Origin: the human T2T-CHM13v2.0 reference genome, Homo sapiens
Assembly: GCA_009914755.4 (NCBI GenBank)
Contig: CP068257.2
Location: 6,880,001 to 6,944,000, forward strand
DNA: 64,000 bases
Direction: 5' to 3'
The position numbers and the translations under genes are program-made. The notes under the pieces are model-generated. The model saw only the letters and a program-made list of their open reading frames with translations, searched no databases and was not told the DNA's origin. Of this stretch, positions 1 through 47,385 are shown one piece after another. The first letter of the stretch is position 1, and the number at the start of each line of letters is the position of its first letter.

Positions 1-1060
1 ATGATATGTCTACGTTATTAATTATATGTAACATATGTTATATATTATATATTTCACATGGAATACACGTTACATATAATATATACTATGATACCTATAA
101 CGTATAATTTATTAAATATAATATACTGTATCTCATATATTATATATAATTCATAATATACAGTATGTGGAATGTGTTATATATGACATGTAATATATGA
201 TATATATAACATGCAATATATCATATAGAACATACAATATATGATACATAATATATATGGTATACAAAATATATTTTATGATATATATTATATATGTGTT
301 ATATTATATTATATATAACTATTTAAAATTTTATATAACTGTATAATATTATACGTAAATATATAATATAATAAACATGACTATATATTATGTTATATAT
401 AATTTTATTACATACGTTACATAATATATCATACTATAATGCATATATTATATTATTTTATATTACATAATATATATTATATATCACATAATATATGCTG
501 CGTACATAATATTAAAATATATATTATATTATGATATATGAAATATCGTATATATTATGTATCCTATATTGTATAATGTACATTATATATTATATAACAT
601 GTATGTTGTCTATCATACGATATATAAAATTATATATATGATTATATTGTTATACCTATAACGATATAAATATGTAATTATATGTATCATTATTTATATT
701 ATATATTATTATATAATCATGTATAATTATTTATATTATATAAATAATTATATGATTATATAAATTATAATATATAAATTATACTATGTAATAAAAAATA
801 TATATATTATATATCATATATGATATAGTATATATGCTATATATCATATTATATATAAAAATATGTTATGTTATATACAATTATATATTTTCATATATAA
901 GATGTATAATATGTATTATCTATTATATATGTTATGTACTATATGTAATGTAAATAAGCTGACACAGGATAAATATTACATATTATGATATATAATATCT
1001 ATGAGGTTATATATTACATATAAAGCATATTACAAAACATATAATATATATCATGTATAA

Positions 1061-1352
1061 TTTTTTTTTAGACAGAGCCTTGTCCTGTTGCACAGCGTGG
1101 GGTACAATGGCGCCATCTTTACTCACTGCAACATCTGCCTCACGGGTTCAAGCGATTGTCCTCCCTCAGCCTCCCAGGTAGCTGGGAGTAGACCACACTG
1201 GGACTACACCAGCTGCCACCATGCCTAGCTAATTTTTTGGATTTTTAGCAGTGACAGCGTTTCACTGTATTGGCCAGGATGGTCTTGATCTCTTCACCTT
1301 GTGATCCCCTTGCCTTGGCCTCCAAATTTCCTGGGATTACAGGCCTGAGCCA
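1061..1352 (-). mobile_element. Alu SINE (antisense), embedded in macrosatellite unit 1
   Basis: Poly-T head then gacagagccttgtcctgttgcacag...cctcccaggtagctgggagta...ctgggattacaggcctgagccaag, the reverse-complement Alu consensus. It lacks the last ~12 bp. Confidence 0.9.
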
Positions 1353-3465
1353 AGATACATGTTTTTTAAATGAAGAAGAATTTCAAAGCTACTCTGCTTG
1401 GGACAAGAATCAAATATATAAACTGAGGAATAAAACATAACCATGAAACATATTTATAACTGCATATGGAAAATACAGAGGATAATTTTTTAAATAACAT
1501 ATTTTGAAAGCATTAACTAGTAATTTGAAGAGTTGGCATTTGAAAGGCCCGTATGAATATACCTTCAAAGCAGCAACACAGGTTCCCCATGAGAAAAATC
1601 AAACTCAGGGAAAATAAAACCACAAGGGTTCACTCTGTTCTGACCTTTGAAAAACACAGCACAGACAGTGGCCCTTAGGACCAAGAGCAGGAGATCCCTA
1701 ATCCCGTCACCACGGCGATAGGGCACAAACATTGCAGGGTGAGGGCACAATCCACATTGTGAGGTCCAACTGCTGCCGGGAAGACAGGAGTGCTTTTACA
1801 TAGACCCAAAGGTCATTGAAGGCTCAGTGTTTTGTTTCAAAAACTGAATCCCAAGCCCACACATTACTATGCTGCGCTTCTTAAAACAAGTTATGAGATG
1901 GGAAATAGGGCACCCACAAATATATCTATACATTATGTATATAATAATATATAGAATCATATATATAATATATGTAACATATATATATAATATTCTTTTA
2001 CACCCTGCATCTTACATTATGTATATTATATGTAATATAATAATTGAAAGTATATAAGTATAATATTTATACAATATGACATATAATAATTATATTTTAT
2101 GACATATATAATATATATTCTATATCATATATAGAATATATTATATGGTTAATATACGTACTAAATATATAATATACATTATATGTATTATATATATTAT
2201 ATCTACGTTATATATAACATACCTCATAGATAATATATATGATATCTCTGTTATATATAATATAAAATAACATAAAAAAATATATAATTGTATATATAAA
2301 ACATGACATATAATATATATTATATTTTATGACATATATAATACATATTATATATTATATATGTAATACGTTGTATGTATGATGCATATATTAAATATAT
2401 ATGATATGTCTACGTTATTAATTATATGTAATATATGTTATGTATTATATATTTTACATGGAATACACATGTTACATATAATTTATACTATGTTACCTAT
2501 AACGTATAATTTATTATATATAATATAATATATGTCATAAGTTATATGTAATTTATAATATACAGTATGTGGAATGTGATATATATGACATGTAATATAT
2601 GATATGTAACATACAATATATCATATATAACATACAATATATGATACATAATATATATGGTATACAAAATATATTTTATGATATATATTATATATGTTTT
2701 ATATTATATTACATATATCTATTTAAAATTATATATAACGGTATAATATTATACGTAAATATATAATATATATGACTATATATGAAGTTATATATAACTT
2801 TATTACATACTTTACATAATACATCATAATATAATGCATATGTTATATTATTTTATATTACATAATATATATTACATATCACATAATGTATACTACCTAC
2901 ATAATATTAAAATATATATTATAATATGATATATTAAATATCATATATATTATGTATCCTATATTGTATAATATACATTATATATTATATAACATGTATG
3001 TTGTCTATCATATTATATATATAATTATATATGATTATATTGTCATACATATAACGATATAAATATGTAATTATATATATCATTATTTATATTATATGTA
3101 ATTATATAATCATGTTTAATTATTTATATTTTATAAATAATTATATGATTTTATAAATTATAATATATATAAATTATACTATGTAATAAAAATATATATA
3201 TTATAGATCATATATGATATAGTATATATGTTACATATCATATTATATAGAAATATATGTTATGTTATATACAATTATATAATTTCATATATAAGATGTA
3301 TAATATGTATTATCTATTATATATGTTATGTAATATATATAATGTAAATAAGCTGACACAGGATAAATATTAAATATTATGATATATAATATATTTGAGG
3401 TTATATATTACATATAAAGCATATTACAAAACATATAATATATATCATGTATAATTTCTTTTTAG

Positions 3466-3748
3466 ACAGAGCCTTGTCCTGTTGCACAGCGTGGGGTACA
3501 ATGGCGCCATCTTTACTCACTGCAACATCTGCCTCACGGGTTCAAGCGATTGTCCTCCCTCAGCCTCCCAGGTAGCTGGGAGTACACCACACTGGGACTA
3601 CACCAGCTGCCACCATGCCTAGCTAATTTTTTGGATTTTTAGTAGTGACAGCGCTTCACTGTATTGGCCAGGATGGTCTTGATCTCTTCACCTTGTGATC
3701 CCCTTGCCTTGGTCTCCAAATTTCCTGGGATTACAGGCCTGAGCCAAG
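3466..3748 (-). mobile_element. Alu SINE (antisense), unit 2 copy of the same Alu
   Basis: Same sequence and same truncation point as 1061-1352. Confidence 0.9.
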
Positions 3749-5847
3749 ATACATATTTTTTAAATGAAAAAGAATTTCCAAGCTACTCTGCTTGGGACAA
3801 GAATCAAATATATAAACTGAGGAATAAAACATAACCATGAAGCTTATTTATAACTGCATATGGAAAATACAGAGGATAATTTTTTAAATAACATCTTTTG
3901 AAAGCATTAACTAGTAATTTGAAGAGTTGGCATTTGAAAGGCCCGTATGAATATACCTTCAAAGCAGCAACACAGGTTCCCCATGAGAAAAATCAAACTC
4001 AGGGAAAATAAAACCACAAAGGTTCACTCTGTTCTGACCTTTGAAAAACACAGCACAGACAGTGGCCCTTAGGACCAAGAGCAGGAGATCCCTAATCCCG
4101 TCACCACGGCGATAGGGCACAAACATTGCAGGGTGAGAGCACAATCCACATTGTGAGGTCCAACTGCTGCCAGGAAGACAGGAGTGCTTTTACATAGACC
4201 CAAAGGTCATTGAAGGCTCAGTGTTTTGTTTCAAAAACTGAATCCCAAGCCCACACATTACTATGCTGCGCTTCTTAAAACAAGTTATGAGATGGGAAAT
4301 AGGGCACCCACAAATCTATCTATACATTATGTATATAATAATATATAGAATCATATATATAATATATGTAACATATATATAATATTCTTTTACACCCTGC
4401 ATCTTATATTATGTATATTATATGTAATATAATAATTGAAAATATATAAGTATAATATTTATACAATATGACATATAATAATTATATTTTATGACATATA
4501 TAATATATATTCTATATCATATATAGAATATATTATATGGTTAATATACGTACTAAATATATAATATACATTATATATATTATATATATTATATCTACGT
4601 TATATATAACATACCTTATAGATAATATATATATGATATCTCTGTTATATATAATATAAAATAACATAAAAAATATATAATTGTATATATAAAACATGAC
4701 ATATAATATATATTATATTTTATGACATATATAATACATATTATATATTATATATGTCATACGTTGTATGTATGATGCATATATTAAATATATATGATAT
4801 GTCTACGTTATTAATTATATGTAATATATGTTATGTATTATATATTTTACATGGAATACACATGTTACATATAATTTATACTATGTTACCTATAACGTAT
4901 AATTTATTATATATAATATAATGTATGTCATATGTTATATGTAATTTATTATATACAGTATGTGGAATGTGATATATATGACATGTAATATATGATATGT
5001 AACATACAATATATCATATATAACATACAATATATGATACATAATATATATGGTATACAAAATATATTTTATGATATATATTATATATGTTTTATATTAT
5101 ATTATATATAACTATTTAAAATTATATATAACTCTATAATATACGTAAATATATAATATATATGACTATATATGATGTTATATATAATTTTATTACATAC
5201 TTTACATAATATATCATAATATAATGCATATATTATATTATTTTATATTACATAATATATATTATATATCACATAATGTATGCTACATATATAATATTAA
5301 AATATATATTATATTATGATATATTAAATATCACATATATTATGTATCCTATATTGTATAATATACATTATATATTATATAACATGTATGTTGTCTATCA
5401 TATTATATATAATTATATATATGATTATATTGTCATACATATAACGATATAAATATGTAATTATATATATCATTATTTATGTTATATGTAATTATATAAT
5501 CATGTATAATTATTTATATTATATAAATAATTATATGATTTTATAAATTATAATATATATAAATTATACCATGTAATAAAAATATATATATTATATATCA
5601 TATATGATATAGTATATATGTTATATATCATATTATATAGAAATATATGTTATGTTATATACAATTATATATTTTCATATATAAGATGTATAATATGTAT
5701 TATCTATTATATATGTTATGTAATATATATAATGTAAATAAGCTGACACAGGGTAAATATTAAATATTATGATATATAATATATATGAGGTTATATATTA
5801 CATATAAAGCATATTACAAAACATATAATATATATCATGTATAATTT

Positions 5848-6138
5848 CTTTTTAGACAGAGCCTTGTCCTGTTGCACAGCGTGGGGTACAATGGCGCCAT
5901 CTTTACTCACTGCAACATCTGCCTCACGGGTTCAAGCGATTGTCCTCCCTCAGCCTCCCAGGTAGCTGGGAGTACACCACACTGGGACTACACCAGCTGC
6001 CACCATGCCTAGCTAATTTTTTGGATTTTTAGTAGTGACAGCGCTTCACTGTATTGGCCAGGATGGTCTTGATCTCTTCACCTTGTGATCCCCTTGCCTT
6101 GGCCTCCAAATTTCCTGGGATTACAGGCCTGAGCCAAG
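5848..6138 (-). mobile_element. Alu SINE (antisense), unit 3 copy
   Basis: Same sequence as the unit 1 and 2 Alus. Confidence 0.9.
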
Positions 6139-8251
6139 ATACATATTTTTTAAATGAAAAAGAATTTCAAAGCTACTCTGCTTGGGACAAGAATCAAATA
6201 TAAAAACTGAGGAATAAAACATAACCATGAAACTTACTTATAACTGCATATGGAAAATACAGAGGATAATTTTTTAAATAACATCTTTTGAAAGCATTAA
6301 CTAGTAATTTGAAGAGTTGGCATTTGAAAGGCCCGTATGAATATACCTTCAAAGCAGCAACACAGGTTCCCCATGAGAAAAATAAAACTCAGGGAAAATA
6401 AAACCACAAAGGTTCACTCTGTTCTGACCTTTGAAAAACACAGCACAGACAGTGGCCCTTAGGACCAAGAGCAGGAGATCCCTAATCCCGTCACCACGGC
6501 GATAGGGCACAAACATTGCAGGGTGAGGGCACAATCCACATTGTGAGGTCCAACTGCTGCCAGGAAGACAGGAGTGCTTTTACATAGACCCAAAGATCAT
6601 TGAAGGCTCAGTGTTTTGTTTCAAAAACTGAATCCCAAGCCCACACATTACTATGCTGCGCTTCTTAAAACAAGTTATGAGATGGGAAATAGGGAACCCA
6701 CAAATCTATGTATACATTATGTATAAAATAATATACAGAATCATATATATAATATATGTAACATATATATATAATATTCTTTTACACCCTGCATCTTATA
6801 TTATGTATATTATATGTAATATAATAATTGAAAATATATAAGTATAATATTTATACAATATGACATATAATAATTATATATTATGACATATATAGTATAT
6901 ATTATATATCATATATAGAATATGTTATATGGTTAATATACGTACTAAATATATAATATACATTATATATATTATATATATAATATCTACGTTATATATA
7001 ACAAACCTCATAGATAATATATATATGATATCTCTGTTATATATAATATAAAATAACATAAAAAAAATATAATTGTATATATAAAACATGACATATAATA
7101 TATATTATATTTTATGACATATATATAATACATATTATATATTATATATGTAATACGTTGTATGTATAATGCATATATTAAATATATATGATATGTCTAC
7201 GTTATTAATTATATGTAATATATGTTATATATTATATATTTTACATGGAATACACATGTTACATATAATTTATATTATGTTACCTATAACGTATAATTTA
7301 TTATATATAATATAATGTATGTCATATATTATATATATTTTATAATATACAGTATGTGGAATGTGATATATATGACATGTAATATATGATATGTAACATA
7401 CAATATATCATATATAACATACAAGATATGATACATAATATATATGGTATACAAAATATATTTTATGATATATATTATATATGTTTTATACTATAATATA
7501 TATAACTATTTAAAATTATATATAACTGTATGATATTATACATAAATACATAATATAATATATATAACTATACATTATGTTATATATAATTTTATTACGT
7601 ACTTTACATAATATATCATAATATAATGCATATATTATATTATTTTATATTACATAATATATATTATATATCACGTAATATATGCTACATACATAATATT
7701 AAAATATATATTATATTATGATATATTAAATATCGTATATATTATGTATCCTATATTGTATAATATACATTATATATTATATAACATGTATGTTATCTAT
7801 CATATGATATATAAAATTATATATATGATTATATTGTCATACATAAAACGATATAAATATGCAATTATATATATCATTATTTATATTATATATAATTATA
7901 TAATCATGTATAATTATTTATACTATATAAATAATTATATGATTATATAAATTATAATATATATAAATTATACTATGTAATAAAAAATATATATACTATA
8001 TATCATATATGATATAGTATATATGGTATATATCATATTATATATAAATATATGTTATGTTATATAGAATTATATATTTTCATATATAAGATGTATAATA
8101 TGTATTATCTATTATATATATTTTATGTAATATATATAATGTAAATAAGCTGACACAGGATAAATATTAAATATGATGTTATATAATATATATGAGGTTA
8201 TATATTACATATAAAGCATATTACATAACATATAATATATATCATGTAAAA

Positions 8252-8544
8252 TTTTTTTTTAGACAGAGCCTTGTCCTGTTGCACAGCGTGGAGTACAATA
8301 GCGCCATCTTTACTCACTGCAATATCTGCCTGACGGGTTCAAGCGATTGTCCTCCCTCAGCCTCCCATGTAGCTGGGAGTACACCACACTGGGACTACAC
8401 CAGCTGCCACCATGCCTATCTAATTTTTTGGATTTTTAGTAGTGACAGCGTTTCACTGTATTGTCCAGGATGGTCTTGATCTCTTCAACTTGTGATCCCC
8501 TTGCCTTGGCCTCCAAATTTCCTGGGATTACAGGCCTGAGCCAA
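8252..8544 (-). mobile_element. Alu SINE (antisense), unit 4 copy
   Basis: Same Alu with a few substitutions. Confidence 0.9.
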
Positions 8545-10624
8545 GATACATATTTTGTAAATGAAAAAGAATTTCAAAGCTACTCTGCTTGGGACAAGAA
8601 TCAAATATATAAACTGAGGAATAAAACATAACCATGAAACTTATTTATAACTGCATATGGAAAATACACAGGATAATTTTTTAAATAACATGTTTTGAAA
8701 GCATTAAATGATAATTTGAAGAGTTGGCATTTGAAAGGCCAGTATGAATACACCTTCAAAGCAGCAACACAGGTTCCGCATGAGAAAAATCAAACTCAGG
8801 GAAAATAATACCACAAAGGTTCACTCTGTTCTGACGTTTGAAAAACACAGCACAGACAGTGGCCCTTAGGACCAAGAGCAGGAGATCCCTAATCCCGTCA
8901 CCATGGCGATAGGGCATAAACATTGCAGGGTGAGGGCACAATCCACATTGTGAGGTCCAACTGCTGCCAGGAAGACAGGAGTGCCTTTACATAGACCGAA
9001 AGGTCATTGAAGGCTCAGTGTTTTGTTTCAAAAACTGAATTGCAAGCCCACACATTATTATGCTGTGTTTGTTAAAACAAGTTATGAGATGGGAAACAGG
9101 GCACCCACAAATATATATATATACATTATGTATACAATAATATATAGTATCATAAATATAATATATATAACATATATATAATATTGTTTTACATCCTGCA
9201 TCTTATACTACATATATTATATGTAATATAATAATTGATAATAAATATTATATTTATACAACATGACATATAATATATAATAATTTATGACATATATAAT
9301 ATATTGTATATATTATATATAGAATATATTATATGGTTAATATACGTATTAAATATATAATATACATTATATATATTATATATATTATATCTATGTTATA
9401 TATAATATACATTATATATAATGTATATATTATATCTATGTTATATATAATATAAAATAATATATAATAATATATAATTGTATATATAAAATGTGACATA
9501 TAGTATATATTATACTTTGTGACATATATATAATATATATTATATATTATATATATAATACGTTGTATGTAGAATACATATATTAAATATATATTATATG
9601 TCTATGTTATTAATTATATGTAATATACGTTATATATTATATATTTTACATAGAATATACATGTTACATATAATATATATTGTTACATATAATGTATAAT
9701 TTATTATATATAATATAATGTATGTCATATATTATATATAATTTATAATGTACAATATGTGGAATGTGATATATATAACATATAATATATGATATATGAT
9801 ATACAATATATGATATATAACATACAATATATGATACATAATATATATGGTATACAATATATATTTTATGTTTTATATCATATATGTTTTATATTATATT
9901 ATATATAACTATTTAAAATTATATATAACTGTATAATATTATATGTATATATATAATATAATATATATAACTATATATTATGTTATATATAATTTTATTA
10001 CATACTTTACATACTACATAATAGTATAATATATATTATATTACATTATTTTATATTACATAATATATATTATATATCACATAATATATGTTACATACAT
10101 AATATTGAAATATATATTATGACATATTAAATATCATATATATTATGTATCCTATATTGTATAATATATATTATATATTATATAATATGTATGTTGTCTA
10201 TTCTGTGATACATATAATTATATATATAATTATATTATTATGCATATAACTATATAAACATGTAATTATATATATTATTATTTATATTATATAAAATTAT
10301 ATAATCATATATAATTATTTCTATTTTATAAATAATCATATCATTATATAAATTATAATATATATAAATTATAATATGTAATAAATATATATATTATATA
10401 TCATATATGATATAGTATATATGTTATATATCATATTATATATAACTCTATATTATGTTACCTATAATTATATATTTTCATATGTAAGATGTATAATATG
10501 TATTATATATTTTATATGTTATGTAATATATATAACATATATAATATGACGTAGGATAAATATTATATATTATGACATATAATATATATGAGGTTATATA
10601 TTACTTATAAAGCATATTACATAA

Positions 10625-10940
<316 letters not shown>

Positions 10941-13004
10941 AGTACATATTTTTTAAATGATGAAAAATTTCAAAGTTACTCTGCTTGGAACAATAATGAA
11001 ATATATTAACTGAGGAATAAAACATAACCATGAAACATATTTATAACTGCATATGGAAAATACAGAGGATAATTTTTTAAATAACATGTTTTGAAAGCAT
11101 TAACTAGTAATTTGAAGAGTTGGCATTTGAAAGGCCAGTATGAATATACCTTCAAAGCAGCAACACAGGTTCCCCATGAGAAAAATCAAACTCAGGGAAA
11201 ATAAAACCTCAGAGGTTCACTCTGTTCTAACCTTTGAAAAACACAGCACAGACAGTGGCCCTTAGGACCAAGAGCAGGAGATCCCTAATCCCGTCACCAT
11301 GGCGATAGGGTATAAACATTGCAGGGTGAGGGCACAATCCACATTGTGAGGTCCAACTGCTGCCAGGAAGACAGGAGTGCTTTTACATAGACCGAAAGGT
11401 CATTGAAGGCTCAGTGTTTTGTTTCAAAAACTGAATCCCAAGCCCACACATTATTATGCTGTGCTTCTTAAAACAATTTATGAGATGGGAAACAGGGCAC
11501 CCAGAAATATATATATACATTATGTATATAATAATATATAGTATCATATATATAATATATATAACATATATATAATGTTGTTTCACATCCTGCATCTTAT
11601 ATTGTATATATTATATGTAATATAATAATTGATAATATATAAGTATTATATTTATACAATATGATATATAATATATATTATGTTTTATGACATATATAAT
11701 ATATATTATATATCATATATAGAATATATTATATGGTCAATATAAGTATTAAATATGTAATATACATTATATATAATACATATATTATATCTATGTTATA
11801 TATAATATAAAATAATATATAATAATATATAATTGTATATATACAATATGACTTATAATTATATATTATATTTTTTGACATATATAATATATATTATATA
11901 TTTTATATATATAATACATTGTATGTATAATACATATATTAAATATATATTATATGTCTATGTTATAAATTATATGTAATATATATTATATATTATATAT
12001 TATATATTTTATATACAATATATATGTTGTTCAACTTCTCCTTTTAAAGAAAAATGAGAAAAAATATCTCTAAAATCGAGGACAGGCAAGGAGAATGTCC
12101 CCCTTTGGGCACCCCTGCTTGTTTTATGTGTGATAATTATAGCACCTCTTCTTGCAAACATTTATGTAAAGTGAGGATTTTACTAAGGACGACCAACATC
12201 TAAGGTTCCCAAAGTGAAGAACTTTAAATATTCCCAACCTGGTCTTCTCGTATGCTAAATTAGAGAAGTTAGGTTTCTGCATCAAGGAAAATAAATGAGG
12301 GTTGTATTTTAGCTGGCACCTAAAAACATCCAAAATTAGAAATGATAAACTTATTTCTTTCCAGAAAGGTAACAACAAAATATTTGAAACTACCTCAGAA
12401 TTAAAGAAAAGTAGCAAAATCAGTTTCTAAAATCAGGAAACTGCGAGAAACTGTCTCTTCTTTTTCTTCTCCTAAACCTCTGCTTTCTAAACTTCCTTGC
12501 CTGGATGATTTCATTTTTTTTCTCTTTCTCCTCCCTGTATTCCTTCTTAAACCACAAAGGGTCCAGAAATAGCTACAGGAGAAGACAAAATAGTAGTCAT
12601 TTCTTTTAAAACAAAACCCACAGGATGAGTGGGTTCAAACATAAGATATACACCTTACACCAAGTCAGAATTAAATGCTCTGATGTTTGGATTTCCTGAT
12701 CTGACTCAAGACACCTTAGGTTTGCCAAGGAATTCCAAATAATGCTTAAGACCTATGATTCAGGGTTTTCAAACCAATATCAGCTAACTGATTTACTAGT
12801 CCTCCAAAACAAAGCCAAAGATTGCTACAAAGTAGTGAATTAGAAACAGCTTTAGCAGATTTTAACAAACTAAAGTGCAAATGGGAGAGAGAAGCGTAGG
12901 GAGTTTTGCAACTGCCTCTGTGGGAATTTACCACAGCTATTCCCCCTAATCCTATAGACTAGGCAAAATACAACAATGTAATACATACCCCAGCAAAACC
13001 ATAC

Positions 13005-30358: not shown

Positions 30359-32420
<2,062 letters not shown>

Positions 32421-36199: not shown

Positions 36200-36712
36200 T
36201 TAAACAACAACAACGCTTAAGTGTTAAACAACAACAACAAAAAAGGAAACCATTAGAGGATTCTGTCAGTGATTCATGGAGACTGGCTTGGCGAATGCCG
36301 TTGAAAAGAAGGGCCGTCATCCCAGACTCCGGGTGATAGACAGGTGAACGCCTAAGAAGAAAGCATTTATTTTCCATGTTTAAATCGTTATTAAACAAGA
36401 CACATACTGCAAAACATTTCTTGGAAGGGAGCAACGTGAACCAGCCATGGGCTGCCTGAAGAGCCCCAGATGTAAACCATTACATTATCTGAGGATTAAA
36501 GTGTGTTCACATTTCCAGTTTTGCCCATCAGGAAGGCATGTGATTTGAAAGTGTAATTGGCCGATGTCATTTTTGGGGAAACGCACAGCGTGCTGTGGAC
36601 GTATTAACTTACTGTAAAGAATGTATGGGGCGTGTGGCCTCCTTGCAGGATTCTGGGACATGGGGTGAAGTCCCCACTATCAATGGGCACCCACAGGTGT
36701 GTGGATACCCCA

Positions 36713-37928
36713 CCCAGCAGAGGCTCCAGCATGATTTACCCACCAGAGGCTCCAGCATGATTTACCCACCAGAGGCTCCAGCATGATTTACCCACCAGAG
36801 GCTCTAGCATGATTTACCCAACAGAAGCTTCAGCATGATTTACCCACCAGAGGTTCCAACATAATTTACCCACCAGAAGCTCCAGCATGATTTACCCACC
36901 AGAGGTTCCAGCATGATTTACCCACCAGAAGCTTCAGCATGATCCACCCACCAGAGGCTCCAACATGGTCCACCCACCAGAAGCTCCAGCATAATTTACC
37001 CACCAGAAGCTCCACCATGGTCCACCCACCAGAAGCTCCAGCATGGTCCACCCATCAGAAGGTCCAGCATAATTTACCTCCAAGAAGCTCCCACCATGGT
37101 CTACTCACCAGAAGCTCCACCATGGTCCACCCACCAGAAGCTCCAGCATGGTCCATCCACCAGAAGCTCCAGCATGATCCACCCACCAGAAGCTCCAGCA
37201 TGGTCCACTCACCAGAAGCTCCAGCATGGTCCACCCACCAGAAGTTCCAGCATGATTTACCCATGAGAAACTCCAGCATGGTCCACCCACCAGAAGCTCC
37301 AGCATGATTTACCCACGAGAAGCTCCGGCATAATTTATCCACCAGAAGCTCCACCATGGTCTACTCACCAGAAGCTCCAGCATGATTTACCCACCAGAAG
37401 CTCCAGCATGCTCCACCCACCAGAAGCTCCACCATGGTCTATCCACCAGAAGCTCCACTATGGTCCACCTACCAGAAACTCCAGTATACTTCACTCACCA
37501 GAAGCTCAGCATGGTCCATCCACCAGAAGCTCCACCATGATCTACCCACCAGAAGCTCCACCATGGCCTACCTACCAGAAGCTCCAGTATGGTTCACCAA
37601 CCAGAAGCCCCAGCATGGTCCACCCACCAGAAGCTCCAGCATGGTCCACCTACCAGAAGCTCCAGCATGATTTACCCATGAGAAGCTCCAGCATAATTTA
37701 TCCACCAGAAGCTCCACCATGGTCTACTCACCAGAAGCTCCAGCATTATTTACCCACCAGAAGCTCCACCATGGGCCACCCACCAGAAGATTCAGCATCG
37801 TCCACCCACCAGAAGCTCCAGCATCGCCCACCCACCAGAAGCTCTAGCATTGTCCACCCACCAGAAGCTCCAGCATCGCCCACCCACCAGAAGCTCCAGT
37901 ATGGTCCACCCACCAGAAGCTCCAGCTT
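36713..37928. repeat. Minisatellite, 26-bp unit x ~47
   Basis: Unit CCAGARGCTCCAGCATGRTYYACCCA, in two variants ending ...gatttaccca or ...ggtccaccca. The plus-strand 122/175-aa and minus-strand ~100-aa ORFs are artefacts of this repeat. Confidence 0.95.
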
Positions 37929-40507: not shown

Positions 40508-40610
40508 AGTGAAGAAGGAGAAGGAGGAGAAGAAGAAGAAGAAGAAGAAGAAGAAGAAGAAGAAGAAGAAGGGGAAGAAGAAGAAGAAGAAGAAGAAGAA
40601 GAAGAAGAAG

Positions 40611-40642
<32 letters not shown>

Positions 40643-40862
40643 GAAGAAGAGGAGGAGGAGGAGGAGGAGAAGGAGGGGGAGGAGAAGGAGGAGGAAGGGG
40701 TAGGGGAAGGGGAAAAAGAAGAAGGAGAAGGAGAGGAGGAAGAAGAGGAAGAGGGAGAAGAGGGAGAAGAAGGAGAAGGAGAGGAGGAAGAGGAAGAAGA
40801 AGAAGGAGAAGGAGAAAAGAAGGAGGAGGAGGAGCGGGAGGAGCAGGGGGAGAAGAAGAAGT
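40508..40862. repeat. GAA/GAG/GGA purine-rich triplet tract (~355 bp), including pure (GAA) runs of about 13 and 20 units; positioned as the tail of the L1
   Basis: gaagaagaagaagaagaagaagaagaagaagaagaaggggaagaagaag... then gaggaggaggag. The 150-aa poly-Ser minus-strand ORF is its artefact. Confidence 0.95.
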
Positions 40863-42124: not shown

Positions 42125-43360
42125 AAGTGATTTCACCAAAGATGTCCAAGTTGTAATTATCTCGTGGTAGACAGAATAATGGCCCCAAAGATATCCATGT
42201 CCTAATCCCCATGTGGTAGACAGAATAATGGCCCTAAAGATGTTACCAATATCCTATTCCCCATGTGGTAGACAGAATAATGGCCCTAAAGATGTTACCA
42301 ATATCCTATTCCCCATGTGGTAGACAGAATAATGGCCCTAAAGATGTTACCAATATCCTATTCCCCATGTGGTAGACAGAATAATGGCCCCAAAGATATC
42401 CATGTCCTAATCCCCATGTGGTAGACAGAATAATGGCCCTAAAGATGTTACCAATATCCTATTCCCCATGTGGTAGACAGAATAATGTCCCCAGAGATGT
42501 CCATGTCCTAATCCCCATGTGGTAGACAGAATAATGGCCCCAAAGATGTCCACATCCTAATCCCCATGTGGGAGACAGAATAATGATCCTAAAGATGTGA
42601 CCAACATCCTATTTCCCACGTGGTAGACAGAATAATGGTCCCAGAGATGTCCATGTCCTAATCCCCATGTGGTAGACAGAATAGTGGTCCCAAAGATGTC
42701 CACATCCTAATCCCGTGTGATAGACAGAACAATGGCCCCAAAGATGTCCATGTCCTAATCCCATGTGGTGAAAACAATAATGTTCCCAAAGATCTTCACA
42801 TCCTAAATCCCATGTGGGAGACAGAATAATGGCCCCAAAGATGTCCACATCCTAATCTCCACTTGGTAGACAGAATAATGGCCTCAAATATGTCCATGTC
42901 CTAATCCCATGTGGCAGACAGAATAATGGCCCTAAAGATGTCCACGTCCTAATCCCCATGTGATAGACAGAATAATGGCCCCAAAGATGTACACATCCTA
43001 ATCCCCATGTGGCAGACAGAATAATGGCCCCAAAGATGTCCACGTCCTAATCCCCATGTGATAGACAGAATAAGGGCCCCAAAGATGTACACATCCTAAT
43101 CCCCACGTGGCAGACAGAATAATGGCCCCAAAGATGTCCACGTCCTAATCCCAATGTGGGAGACAGAATAATGGTCCCAAAGATACCCATGTCCTAATCC
43201 TCATGTGATACAGAGAATAATGGTCCCAAAGATGTCCATGTCCTAATACTAGGTAGCAGACAGAATAATGGCCCCAAGGATGTCTACCTCCTAATCCCCA
43301 TGTGGTTGACAGAGTAAGCACCCCCTTCCCCCCCTCAAAAAAAATCCACATCCTAATTCC
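42125..43360. repeat. Minisatellite, 52-bp unit x ~23
   Basis: Unit ccccatgtggtagacagaataatggccctaaagatgttaccaatatcctatt, with variants ...ccaaagatgtccatgtcctaat.... The 79/63/68-aa minus-strand ORFs are artefacts of this repeat. Confidence 0.95.
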
Positions 43361-46894: not shown

Positions 46895-47006
46895 ATCTAT
46901 CTATTATCTATCATCTATCCTATCTATCTAACCTTCATCTATCCCTCTCTCTATCATCTATCATCCATCTTATTCTATGTGACTATCTATCTATCATCCA
47001 TCTTAT

Positions 47007-47063
<57 letters not shown>

Positions 47064-47385
47064 ATAATCTATCATCTATCATCTCTCCTATCTAATCTAT
47101 TTATCTATGTATCTATCCATCTTATCTATTTACCTATCATTTATCTATCCTGTCTATCAATGTATCTATCATGTATCTATCTGTCCTAGTTATCTATCAA
47201 TTATGTAACTATCCATCCTATTTATCTACCTATTTTATGTATCTATTAAACATCTACATATCTATATATATTACCTATCATCTAGCTATTTATCTATCTA
47301 TCCTATGTATTTATCTATCATCTATTTATTCTATCTATATCTATTTTTTTCTCTATGTCTCTATCTATCTACCTATCTAGAGATT
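46895..47385. repeat. TATC/ATCT-rich compound repeat including a pure (ATCT)15 core at ~47013-47072; third TATC-type block in the window
   Basis: ccatctatctattatctatcatctatcctatctatc...(atct)15...tatataatctatcatctatcatctctcc.... Confidence 0.9.

What the first reader, a model, noticed from the sequence alone, without database searches (positions are those of the whole stretch)
1..1060. Kilobase-scale TA-rich blocks (one per macrosatellite unit) with many short inverted repeats: candidate AT-rich flexibility island
Each unit holds about 1.0-1.5 kb that is over 85% A+T, built from TA/ATA/TATA motifs. It contains numerous short palindromes, for example atatgatatagtatatat and tatatgttatatat-type self-complementary stretches. 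These blocks occupy 1-1060, 1920-3460, 4320-5845, 6710-8250 and 9110-10645.

Long AT-rich, self-complementary tracts are the sequence class of the expandable AT-rich minisatellites at rare fragile sites (FRA16B, FRA10B). They are also the class of palindromic AT-rich repeats at recurrent translocation breakpoints. They stall replication forks and can extrude cruciforms.

Five such blocks in tandem, or more, make this a candidate unstable or fragile locus.
Basis: partly seen in the sequence, partly recalled or inferred. Interest (0 to 1): 0.5.

Follow-up and report, generated by a model that had tools for sequence, protein, structure and literature searches.

The report
AT-rich core of HSat1B satellite
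The kilobase TA-rich blocks are the already described "extremely AT-rich region" of the human 2.4-kb HSat1B (DYZ2-type, satellite I) repeat; they are flexible purely by composition and fold into hairpins no better than shuffled AT-rich DNA, so this is a known satellite and not a new fragile site.

Summary
A sixth, truncated block (11507-12025) ends the array. Each unit is tripartite: a 5'-truncated Alu about 20% diverged from AluY, a 569-bp GC-richer part, and a roughly 1.54-kb AT block. This is the published architecture of HSat1B/DYZ2 ("HSATI"). Fifty-six human-contaminant metagenome contigs carry the same unit. Their commonest form shows the published Yq12 DYZ2 hallmarks: a 2,420-bp unit, 24% GC and the ACATACG junction. 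The window's units match that form at 94% (GC part), 96.5% (Alu) and 85.6% (AT block), so they belong to a diverged subfamily.

The fragile-site reading fails most tests. Perfect palindromes and (TA)n runs are depleted relative to shuffles, and spacer-containing inverted repeats equal chance. Local DNA hairpin energies are about those of shuffles. No 33- or 42-bp minisatellite period exists. Block length stays within 1,539-1,586 bp across 34 copies. The blocks do exceed the TwistFlex threshold everywhere, but composition alone explains that. They mutate 2.2 times faster than the rest of the unit, through substitutions and 1-5-bp indels. One caveat comes from the literature: PATRR22 arose inside a dispersed relative of this unit.

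The parts
1..12025 (-). End of a tandem array of HSat1B (DYZ2-type / HSATI) 2.4-kb composite units: 4 full units, a partial unit at the window edge and a truncated terminal unit. The canonical order GC-part -> Alu -> AT-block reads on the minus strand.
   Evidence: Periods 2394/2390/2407/2396; units 89-98% identical, with the outer units most diverged. Homologous units occur in 56 metagenome contigs.
1..1068 (.). AT block B0 (partial; the window starts at block offset ~481)
   Evidence: 85.8% A+T; aligns to the other blocks at 89-95%
1920..3462 (.). AT block B1
   Evidence: 86.6% A+T; aligns end to end with family AT blocks at 84-97%
4314..5852 (.). AT block B2
   Evidence: 87.0% A+T
6704..8259 (.). 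AT block B3
   Evidence: 87.1% A+T
9111..10655 (.). AT block B4 (most diverged full block, most AT-rich)
   Evidence: 89.0% A+T; 90-91% identical to B1-B3
11507..12025 (.). AT block B5, truncated; the array ends inside it at about 12025
   Evidence: 90.6% A+T; sequence reading; internal 190-bp duplication
1061..1352 (-). 5'-truncated ancient Alu of unit 1 (AluY positions 13-289; poly-A abuts the AT block)
   Evidence: 80.5% identity to the AluY consensus (consensus recalled from memory)
3455..3746 (-). Alu fragment of unit 2
   Evidence: 79.8% identity to AluY
5845..6136 (-). Alu fragment of unit 3
   Evidence: Placed by register with the other units (alignment); not aligned to AluY separately
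8252..8543 (-). Alu fragment of unit 4
   Evidence: 79.4% identity to AluY
10649..10939 (-). Alu fragment of unit 5
   Evidence: 82.2% identity to AluY
1351..1919 (-). GC-richer 569-bp part of unit 1 (the 'HSATI' segment of RepeatMasker-based descriptions)
   Evidence: 91-98.4% identical to the same part in 56 contigs; 67-nt invariant core across the window's units
3745..4313 (-). GC-richer part of unit 2
   Evidence: alignment, 98.5% to unit 1, no indels
6135..6703 (-). GC-richer part of unit 3
   Evidence: alignment
8542..9110 (-). GC-richer part of unit 4
   Evidence: alignment
10938..11506 (-). GC-richer part of unit 5
   Evidence: alignment
2070..2219 (.). The only locally hairpin-prone stretch of block B1. 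It includes a perfect inverted repeat with 13-nt arms and a 3-nt spacer at 2113-2141 (ATATATTCTATAT-CAT-ATATAGAATATAT).
   Evidence: DNA MFE -22.6 kcal/mol, z = -3.5. The same block offset gives z -0.4 to -4.1 in 15 family copies. The perfect form arises from a single A->C change specific to units 1-2.

Best explanation
The blocks are the 'extremely AT-rich region' of the HSat1B composite satellite. This family is also known as DYZ2-type, RepeatMasker HSATI, the classical 2.47-kb satellite I unit, and the '2.4-kb tripartite repeat' of Babcock 2007. Each unit joins three parts: a ~1.54-kb degenerate (ATATAAT)n/(ATATATAAT)n-like low-complexity tract, a 5'-truncated ancient Alu, and a 569-bp GC-richer segment. 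The window holds the last ~5.5 units of an array from a diverged, non-Yq12-consensus subfamily in the human genome. The chromosome was not determined.

Shown here:
- The AT block is a heritable sequence that aligns end to end, not a free-running microsatellite.
- It accumulates substitutions about 2.2 times faster than the rest of the unit.
- Its indels are 1-5 bp long, most often 2 bp, consistent with TA slippage.
- Its length is held at 1.54-1.59 kb.
- Its TA register flips every 5-9 nt. This keeps alternating (TA)n runs at 13 nt or less and perfect palindromes rare.

Inferred from the literature on this family: arrays change size by unequal exchange or gene conversion between whole 2.4-kb units, with the least homogenisation at array edges. 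Breakage at hairpins in the AT block is not the proposed driver. The blocks are highly flexible and easily melted simply because they are AT-rich. No function is demonstrated. The likeliest role is as bulk AT-rich heterochromatin.
For: Architecture:
- Periods are 2390-2407 bp and the blocks are >85% A+T.
- The Alu covers AluY positions 13-289 with 18-21% mismatches.
- Published descriptions match. [quoted passage not shown] Homology:
- 56 metagenome contigs (human contamination) carry the same three parts in the same order.
- The commonest, high-coverage form has a 569+282+1569 = 2420-bp unit, 24.1% G+C and the junction heptamer CGTATGT, the reverse complement of ACATACG. All three match the Yq12 DYZ2 consensus hallmarks.
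- The window's unit aligns to that form at 94.0% (GC part), 96.5% (Alu) and 85.6% (AT block, full length).
- The window's units have 22-24% G+C and one CpG per 126-171 bp, against the published 24% and 1 per 150 bp.

Edge behaviour: the outer units are the most diverged, as reported for DYZ2 arrays.

AT-block dynamics:
- Pairwise difference is 6.3% in the AT block against 2.8% in the rest of the unit.
- Indels are 1-5 bp with a mode of 2 bp; the only indel in the 851-bp remainder is a single 2-bp one, in unit 4.
- Block length is 1539-1586 bp in 30 family copies, and 1539-1556 bp in the window.
- Autocorrelation peaks at lags 7 (z about 24-26), 9, 14 and 16, while lags 4, 6 and 8 fall below shuffles.

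Human origin: an ORF in the flank is found exactly in 99 blocks of human-associated metagenome assemblies.
Against: - No RepeatMasker/Dfam run and no alignment to GenBank X00470.1 or T2T-CHM13 was possible. The identification of the 'Y consensus' contigs rests on three published hallmarks, not on an annotated record.
- The chromosomal location is unknown.
- The window's units are 6% (non-AT) and 14% (AT block) diverged from the presumed Yq12 form, and they lack the ACATACG junction.
- Whole-block folding is 7-13% more stable than shuffles, and one 150-nt segment is mildly hairpin-prone. Some secondary-structure contribution to the raised mutation rate therefore cannot be excluded.
- Part of the excess divergence in the AT block could be alignment noise in low-complexity sequence.
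Confidence: 0.88

Rival explanations
1. The blocks belong to the class of expandable AT-rich minisatellites (FRA16B, FRA10B) or palindromic AT-rich repeats (PATRRs). They stall forks or extrude cruciforms, and this makes the locus a fragile or breakpoint-prone site.
For: - 100% of block windows exceed the TwistFlex-type flexibility threshold.
- HSat1B is reported as enriched in inverted- and mirror-repeat motif calls (T2T-Y Extended Data Fig. 5).
- PATRR22 lies inside a dispersed HSATI/Alu/AT-rich unit of this family (PMC5906017).
- Whole-block MFE is 7-13% below shuffles.
- There is one locally stable hairpin segment.
- The AT block mutates 2.2 times faster than the rest of the unit.
Against: - Palindromes and TA runs are depleted relative to shuffles and to Markov order-5 models.
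- Inverted repeats with spacers occur at the chance rate.
- Local hairpin energies are about those of shuffles and about one third of (AT)50.
- The best self-versus-reverse-complement alignment scores are 39-72, within or near the shuffle range, whereas near-perfect arms of hundreds of bp would be needed.
- There is no 33- or 42-bp periodicity: match 0.37 and 0.42 against a 0.39 baseline. A FRA16B 33-mer, recalled from memory, is absent.
- Block length is invariant within +-1.5%.
- In vivo ssDNA mapping finds IR/cruciform motifs depleted of signal (10.1101/2025.11.03.686349).
Confidence: 0.07
2. The window is a dispersed, segmental-duplication copy of the tripartite unit of the FAM230C / LCR22 'TBTA' type (chr13, 21 or 22 pericentromeric). 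In those loci the AT parts are the substrate from which PATRR22 evolved.
For: The unit parts are the same (HSATI ~566 bp, Alu ~280-290 bp, AT-rich repeat), as tabulated for FAM230C and LINC01660. The window's units are diverged from the Yq12 consensus. The flank is euchromatin-like, Alu-rich and VNTR-rich.
Against: - FAM230C/LCR22 copies have 2-3 units, with AT parts ranging from 77 to 1716 bp and often a 155-bp Alu remnant. Here there are at least 5.5 regular units with 1.54-kb AT parts and 282-292-bp Alus.
- The flank has no EIF3F pseudogene and no match to published snippets of the FAM230C 5' half. The EIF3F query was recalled from memory and could not be validated.
Confidence: 0.1
3. The AT block is a functional module. 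It would act as a binding platform for AT-hook or minor-groove proteins (HMGA-type, scaffold-attachment-like) that compacts the array into heterochromatin. Its length and its non-cruciform character would be under constraint.
For: Block length is conserved at 1539-1586 bp despite fast substitution and frequent small indels. Palindromes and long TA runs are depleted beyond k-mer expectation in all 15 copies examined. Hallast et al. argue for constraint on Yq12 from the 1:1 DYZ1:DYZ2 ratio.
Against: No binding or chromatin data were examined. Length constancy can result from homogenisation of whole units. The depletion may simply be inherited from a 7/9-mer ancestral repeat. Dispersed copies tolerate AT parts of 77-1716 bp.
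Confidence: 0.2
4. The 2.4-kb units are the DAZ gene 2.4-kb repeats of the Y chromosome, each carrying a 72-bp exon.
For: 2385-2404-bp monomers are reported on Y contig NT_011903 (PMC3592446).
Against: There is no tblastn match to the DAZ repeat peptide at E<=10 (peptide recalled from memory). DAZ units are described as a novel repeat plus a fragmented L3, not Alu plus an AT-rich tract.
Confidence: 0.01

Closest known systems
HSat1B / DYZ2 (RepeatMasker HSATI, Dfam DF0000210; classical 2.47-kb satellite I unit, Frommer et al. 1984; '2.4-kb tripartite repeat', Babcock et al. 2007)
   Same: The unit length is ~2.4 kb. The three parts occur in the same order. The AT part is >85% A+T. The Alu is 5'-truncated and ~20% diverged. 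G+C is ~24% with sparse CpG. The whole unit aligns end to end with the presumed Yq12 consensus.
   Different: The window's units are 2390-2407 bp, not 2413/2420 bp. They are 6% (non-AT) and 14% (AT) diverged and lack the ACATACG junction heptamer. Unit-to-unit identity is only 89-98%, against >98% in Yq12. They adjoin ordinary Alu-rich sequence and not DYZ1. They are therefore an array edge or a minor array of another subfamily.
TBTA / PATRR22 element of LCR22 and the HSATI/Alu/AT-rich repeats of FAM230C (PMC5906017)
   Same: The building blocks and ancestry are the same. The AT-rich part is the variable portion.
   Different: Those copies are few (2-3 units). Their AT parts are rearranged, ranging from 77 to 1716 bp, and one of them contains a long near-perfect palindrome. 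In the window the longest perfect arms are 16 nt and block length is uniform.
FRA16B (33-bp) and FRA10B (~42-bp) AT-rich minisatellites
   Same: A+T content is very high (FRA10B 91%). Both are predicted targets for minor-groove binders.
   Different: The fragile-site minisatellites are regular and uninterrupted, and are fragile only when expanded to several kb (PMC9714581). Here there is no 33- or 42-bp period. The blocks are 1.5 kb, separated by 0.85 kb of GC-richer DNA, and do not expand.
Flex1-type perfect (AT)n tracts of common fragile site FRA16D and (TA)n expansions in MSI cancers (from my own knowledge)
   Same: Both are TA-rich with high twist flexibility.
   Different: Those need roughly >=20-35 uninterrupted AT repeats. 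Here the longest is 6.5 repeats (13 nt), shorter than in composition-matched shuffles.
HSat1A (42-bp 'SAR' satellite)
   Same: It comes from the same classical AT-rich satellite I fraction and has a comparable A+T content.
   Different: HSat1A is a simple 42-bp tandem repeat without Alu or a GC-richer part (10.1101/2021.07.12.452052). The window's AT block shows only a weak lag-42 signal (0.416 against 0.391).

Membership tests
HSat1B / DYZ2-type satellite (HSATI) | Tandem array with a ~2.4-2.5-kb unit | tested here: met
   Periods 2394, 2390, 2407 and 2396 bp over at least 5.5 units
HSat1B / DYZ2-type satellite (HSATI) | [quoted passage not shown] | tested here: met
   A+T is 85.8-90.6%. The Alu covers AluY positions 13-289 with 18-21% mismatches (consensus from memory). 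The 569-bp GC-richer part is seen.
HSat1B / DYZ2-type satellite (HSATI) | Sequence homology to bona fide DYZ2 units | tested here: met
   The unit aligns at 94.0%, 96.5% and 85.6%, full length, to high-copy contaminant contigs. Those contigs carry the published DYZ2 hallmarks: 2420-bp unit, ACATACG junction, 24% G+C. No annotated reference record was available, so the link is indirect.
HSat1B / DYZ2-type satellite (HSATI) | Location on Yq12, acrocentric short arms or chr10 | not testable with these tools
   No human reference genome could be searched. The flank matches no fetched contig.
FRA16B / FRA10B rare-fragile-site minisatellites | Regular AT-rich minisatellite with a 33-35-bp or ~42-bp unit | tested here: not met
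   Autocorrelation at lags 33, 35 and 42 is 0.373, 0.409 and 0.416, against a 0.39 baseline. The strongest lags are 7, 9, 14 and 16. TRF finds only 2-5-copy local arrays at 68-88% matches. A FRA16B 33-mer recalled from memory is absent at <=3 mismatches.
FRA16B / FRA10B rare-fragile-site minisatellites | Uninterrupted expansion to several kb, polymorphic in length | tested here: not met
   The blocks are 1.54-1.59 kb in 34 copies and are separated by 851 bp of non-AT DNA.
FRA16B / FRA10B rare-fragile-site minisatellites | Cytogenetic gap induced by distamycin A or BrdU | not testable with these tools
   Requires cytogenetics
PATRR (palindromic AT-rich repeat, e.g. PATRR22/11/17) | Near-perfect palindrome of several hundred bp | tested here: not met
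   The best self-versus-reverse-complement local scores are 39, 40, 48 and 72, against shuffles at 32-46 +-6-7. The longest perfect arms are 16 nt.
PATRR (palindromic AT-rich repeat, e.g. PATRR22/11/17) | Embedded in an HSATI/Alu/AT-rich context (PATRR22 only) | tested here: met
   The window has the same unit type as described for TBTA. This shows shared ancestry, not palindrome membership.
Structure-forming (AT)n tracts of common fragile sites (Flex1 type) | Long uninterrupted (AT)n, roughly >=20-34 repeats (threshold from my own knowledge) | tested here: not met
   The longest pure TA run is 10-13 nt in all 6 window blocks and in 10 family copies.
AT-rich flexibility island (TwistFlex definition) | 100-bp windows with mean twist-angle fluctuation >13.7 degrees, clustered | tested here: met
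   100% of block windows exceed the threshold, with means of 15.0-15.5. The parameter table was recalled from memory, and the result is a direct consequence of composition.

The most novel reading that the evidence does not exclude
Within tandem HSat1B arrays, the AT block may be kept in a 'safe' state: fixed length of ~1.55 kb, the TA register broken every 5-9 nt, and perfect palindromes and long (TA)n runs purged below k-mer expectation. This could come from selection or from preferential loss of cruciform- and slippage-prone variants. Dispersed single copies (LCR22, FAM230C) would escape this homogenisation. Their AT parts would then drift in size and occasionally mature into PATRR-type breakpoint palindromes.
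Probability: 0.15. Interest if true: 0.4.

Novelty: already known. Interest (0 to 1): 0.12.

Why it matters
The main value is as a correct label. A striking 'AT-rich macrosatellite' turns out to be HSat1B, a satellite described in 1984 and fully resolved by the T2T-Y and 43-Y-assembly studies. Its evolutionary link to the 22q11.2 PATRR was already published in 2007.

The analysis also shows that very high A+T, many motif-level 'inverted repeats' and TwistFlex peaks do not by themselves indicate hairpin or cruciform potential. Composition-matched controls remove the signal.

Two observations may deserve a look in T2T and pangenome data. One is the depletion of perfect palindromes and (TA)n runs. 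The other is the tight length conservation in a block that otherwise mutates quickly. Both could bear on why only dispersed copies of this unit became translocation hotspots.

Tried and rejected
- Rfam gathering scan of the whole window: no hits.
- Exact 22-mer from the invariant core against GTDB genome contigs, looking for HSat1B contamination: 0 hits.
- DAZ 2.4-kb repeat idea, raised by PMC3592446: rejected, no DAZ peptide match.
- Locating the window:
  - No fetched contig shares the flank.
  - The closest contig, L004, is a chimera with bacterial DNA.
  - Exact-ORF look-ups found nothing for two ORFs. The third was found only in short human-contaminant contigs, which give no chromosome.
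  - The window has no EIF3F pseudogene and no match to FAM230C 5'-half snippets. The same queries also found nothing in the loci, so the EIF3F query remains unvalidated.
- An apparent pair of compensatory changes preserving a 13-nt-arm hairpin (2113-2141 against 9292-9320) was an alignment artefact. In register, all copies share the right arm. Units 1-2 differ by a single A->C that perfects a quasi-palindrome. This is not evidence of covariation.
- More regular spacing of G/C interruptions does not explain the palindrome depletion: the CV of A/T-only runs is 0.87-0.94, against 0.92-0.94 in shuffles.
- Babcock et al. 2007 (PMC1832092) is not held. Its content is cited second-hand.
- Protein, structure and promoter/terminator tools were not used. 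They are irrelevant to a primate satellite.

Full report
OBSERVATION

The window opens inside a tandem array that ends at about position 12025. Anchoring on the conserved start of the Alu gives unit starts at 1069, 3463, 5853, 8260 and 10656. The periods are therefore 2394, 2390, 2407 and 2396 bp.

A sixth block (11507-12025, 90.6% A+T) is truncated and terminates the array. The remaining 851 bp of each unit is about 39-41% G+C. The coordinates and composition are confirmed.

ANATOMY OF THE UNIT

On the minus strand each unit reads as follows:
- a 569-bp GC-richer segment;
- an Alu that lacks its first 12 bases and differs from the AluY consensus at 18-21% of aligned positions (consensus recalled from memory);
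- the Alu's poly-A;
- a roughly 1.54-kb AT block.

Units are 94-99% identical in the non-AT part. The only indel there is a single 2-bp one, in unit 4. In the AT block identity is 89-98%, with 12-55 gap columns per pair. The two outermost units are the most diverged.

IDENTITY

The literature describes exactly this unit.
[quoted passage not shown] - It is the old male-specific 2.47-kb satellite I unit with one Alu per repeat (cited in PMC9909926).

T2T-Y reports HSat1B as a major human contaminant of microbial databases. I therefore used a stop-free 76-codon stretch of the GC-richer part as a degenerate probe against metagenome contigs. Fifty-six loci came back, and all carry the same three parts in the same order.

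The most frequent, high-coverage form has these properties:
- a 569+282+1569 = 2420-bp unit;
- 24.1% G+C;
- CGTATGT, the reverse complement of ACATACG, at the junction between the GC part and the AT block.

Hallast et al. report a 2,420-bp consensus, 24% G+C and precisely that ACATACG heptamer at that junction. These contigs are therefore the Yq12 DYZ2 consensus.

The window's unit aligns to that consensus at 94.0% (GC part), 96.5% (Alu) and 85.6% (AT block, end to end). It lacks the heptamer. The closest contig is 98% identical.

The window thus holds the edge of an array of a diverged HSat1B subfamily. An ORF in the flank occurs exactly in 99 blocks of human-associated assemblies, so the source is human. 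The chromosome could not be determined. The DAZ 2.4-kb repeat, a rival suggested, is excluded.

TESTING THE FRAGILE-SITE / CRUCIFORM READING

1. Palindromes. Spacer-less perfect palindromes with arms >=6 number 7-17 per block, against 17-42 in dinucleotide-preserving shuffles. Between 0 and 22 of 400 shuffles are as low as the observed count. They stay below Markov chains of order 1-5, which give 23-38. The same depletion is seen in ten independent family copies. Inverted repeats with arms >=10 and spacers <=10 occur at the chance rate, and the longest perfect arms are 12-16 nt.

2. Alternating tracts. The longest pure (TA)n run is 10-13 nt in every copy, against 16-19 in shuffles.

3. Hairpin energy.
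- In 100-nt windows the mean DNA MFE is -9.4 to -11.4 kcal/mol. Shuffles give -8.5 to -10.6, the non-AT part of the unit about -10, and (AT)50 gives -32.
- With the strand folding, ten consecutive 150-nt windows of block B1 give z-scores of +1.0, -3.5, -1.2, -0.8, +1.1, -0.4, -0.2, -0.3, -0.3 and 0.0.
- The one outlier (2070-2219) is mildly hairpin-prone in most family copies, with z from -0.4 to -4.1.
- Folding whole blocks gives -200 to -223 kcal/mol, against -187 to -204 for shuffles. This 7-13% excess depends on long-range, low-identity pairings.

4. Long palindromes. The best self-versus-reverse-complement local alignments score 39-72, against 32-46 +-6-7 for shuffles. Nothing resembles a PATRR.

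5. Minisatellite structure. Autocorrelation peaks at lags 7 (0.54 against 0.385), 9, 14 and 16. Lags 4, 6 and 8 fall below shuffles, and lags 33 and 42 are at baseline. TRF finds only low-match short periods and a few 2-5-copy local arrays. The block is a degenerate 7/9-mer tract whose TA register flips every 5-9 nt.

6. Expandability. In 30 complete family blocks the length is 1539-1586 bp, and in the window it is 1539-1556 bp.

7. Flexibility. With the Sarai twist-angle table used by TwistFlex (recalled from memory), every 100-bp window in the blocks exceeds 13.7 degrees, with means of 15.0-15.5. The rest of the window gives 10.7-10.8. This is a restatement of composition.

WHAT IS UNSTABLE

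The AT block does evolve faster than the rest of the unit.
- Pairwise difference is 6.3% against 2.8%.
- Of the G/C-majority columns in the block, 38% vary.
- Indels are 1-5 bp long, most often 2 bp.

At the array level the family is known to be dynamic.
- Yq12 shows iterative duplications and sister-chromatid exchanges in about 15% of Strand-seq libraries.
- Homogenisation is strongest mid-array, with diverged units at array edges.
- De novo SNV rates are about tenfold elevated on acrocentric short arms and Yq12.

In vivo ssDNA mapping finds IR/cruciform motifs depleted of signal.

The PATRR22 translocation-breakpoint element (TBTA, AB261997.1) is itself built from HSATI, an Alu fragment and AT-rich repeats. 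It is 85% identical to satellite I. FAM230C and the LCR22 copies carry 2-3 such units, with AT parts of 77-1716 bp (PMC5906017). Babcock et al. 2007 called the family a 2.4-kb tripartite AT-rich repeat shared by LCR22s, acrocentric pericentromeres and Yq12 (cited in PMC2638574 and PMC7767330). The paper itself is not held.

It was already published, and the copies in this window carry no such palindrome.

VERDICT

The feature is real and already known. It is an HSat1B array edge. The flexibility-island label is descriptively true but compositional. The hairpin, cruciform and expandable-minisatellite mechanism is not supported for these copies.

Two observations remain unexplained (notebook): the depletion of perfect palindromes and (TA)n runs, and the tight length conservation in a block that otherwise mutates quickly.

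Noticed in passing
window 11507-12025: The array ends inside an AT block. This last block is truncated to 519 bp, is the most AT-rich (90.6%) and contains an internal ~190-bp duplication (TRF 11605-12000, 2.1 copies, 78%).
   Followed up: partly
window 20951-23579: A 2.6-kb (TCTA)n-derived complex satellite with a 295/258-bp higher-order period (about 7 copies at 82%). It has strong C>G skew (-0.6) and several TwistFlex-type peaks.
   Followed up: no
window 31124-31746 and 40511-40822: A ~620-bp (TC)n polypyrimidine tract and a (GAA)n tract of about 104 repeats (79% matches). Both are mirror repeats of the triplex/H-DNA class and are arguably better non-B DNA candidates than the AT blocks.
   Followed up: no
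window 18240-18849, 27145-27467, 36710-37926, 42164-43317: The flank is dense in minisatellites: 45/90-bp x12, 110-bp x2.9 (93%), 26-bp x47 (83%) and 49-bp x23 (84%). This suggests a subtelomeric or pericentromeric type of neighbourhood, but the locus was not identified.
   Followed up: no
window 27686-27987 and 46895-47379: There are further (CTAT)n/(ATCT)n tetranucleotide tracts, related in motif to the 2.6-kb TCTA satellite.
   Followed up: no
window 2113-2141 (and 4505-4533): A perfect inverted repeat with 13-nt arms and a 3-nt spacer exists only in units 1-2. A single A->C change perfects a quasi-palindrome that is imperfect in all other family copies. This is one event, compatible with chance or with template-switch 'quasi-palindrome correction'.
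   Followed up: partly
AT blocks of the window and loci L002-L048: Perfect palindromes and pure (TA)n runs are depleted relative to dinucleotide shuffles and to Markov order-5 models. Block length is conserved at 1539-1586 bp despite a 2.2-fold higher substitution rate. The cause is unresolved.
   Followed up: partly
L004 (OJNL01006922.1) 2619-3690; many of L001-L056: Public metagenome assemblies contain HSat1B units. Some are collapsed to contigs of about one unit at high coverage. At least one is chimerically joined to bacterial coding sequence. This human satellite contamination escapes host filtering.
   Followed up: partly
window 1353-1370 versus 1050-1060: The sequences flanking the Alu (…AAAAACATGTATCT | Alu | poly-A TTATACATGATAT…) look like a degenerate target-site duplication. 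This would suggest that the Alu inserted into pre-existing AT-rich DNA before the unit was amplified. It was judged by eye only.
   Followed up: no
L049, L053-L056 (BNJT01002008.1, 54 kb): A long metagenome contig carries many HSat1B units with unusually low and uneven identity (53-96% at the protein-probe level). It is either a long-read assembly with errors or a more heterogeneous array. It was not examined.
   Followed up: no
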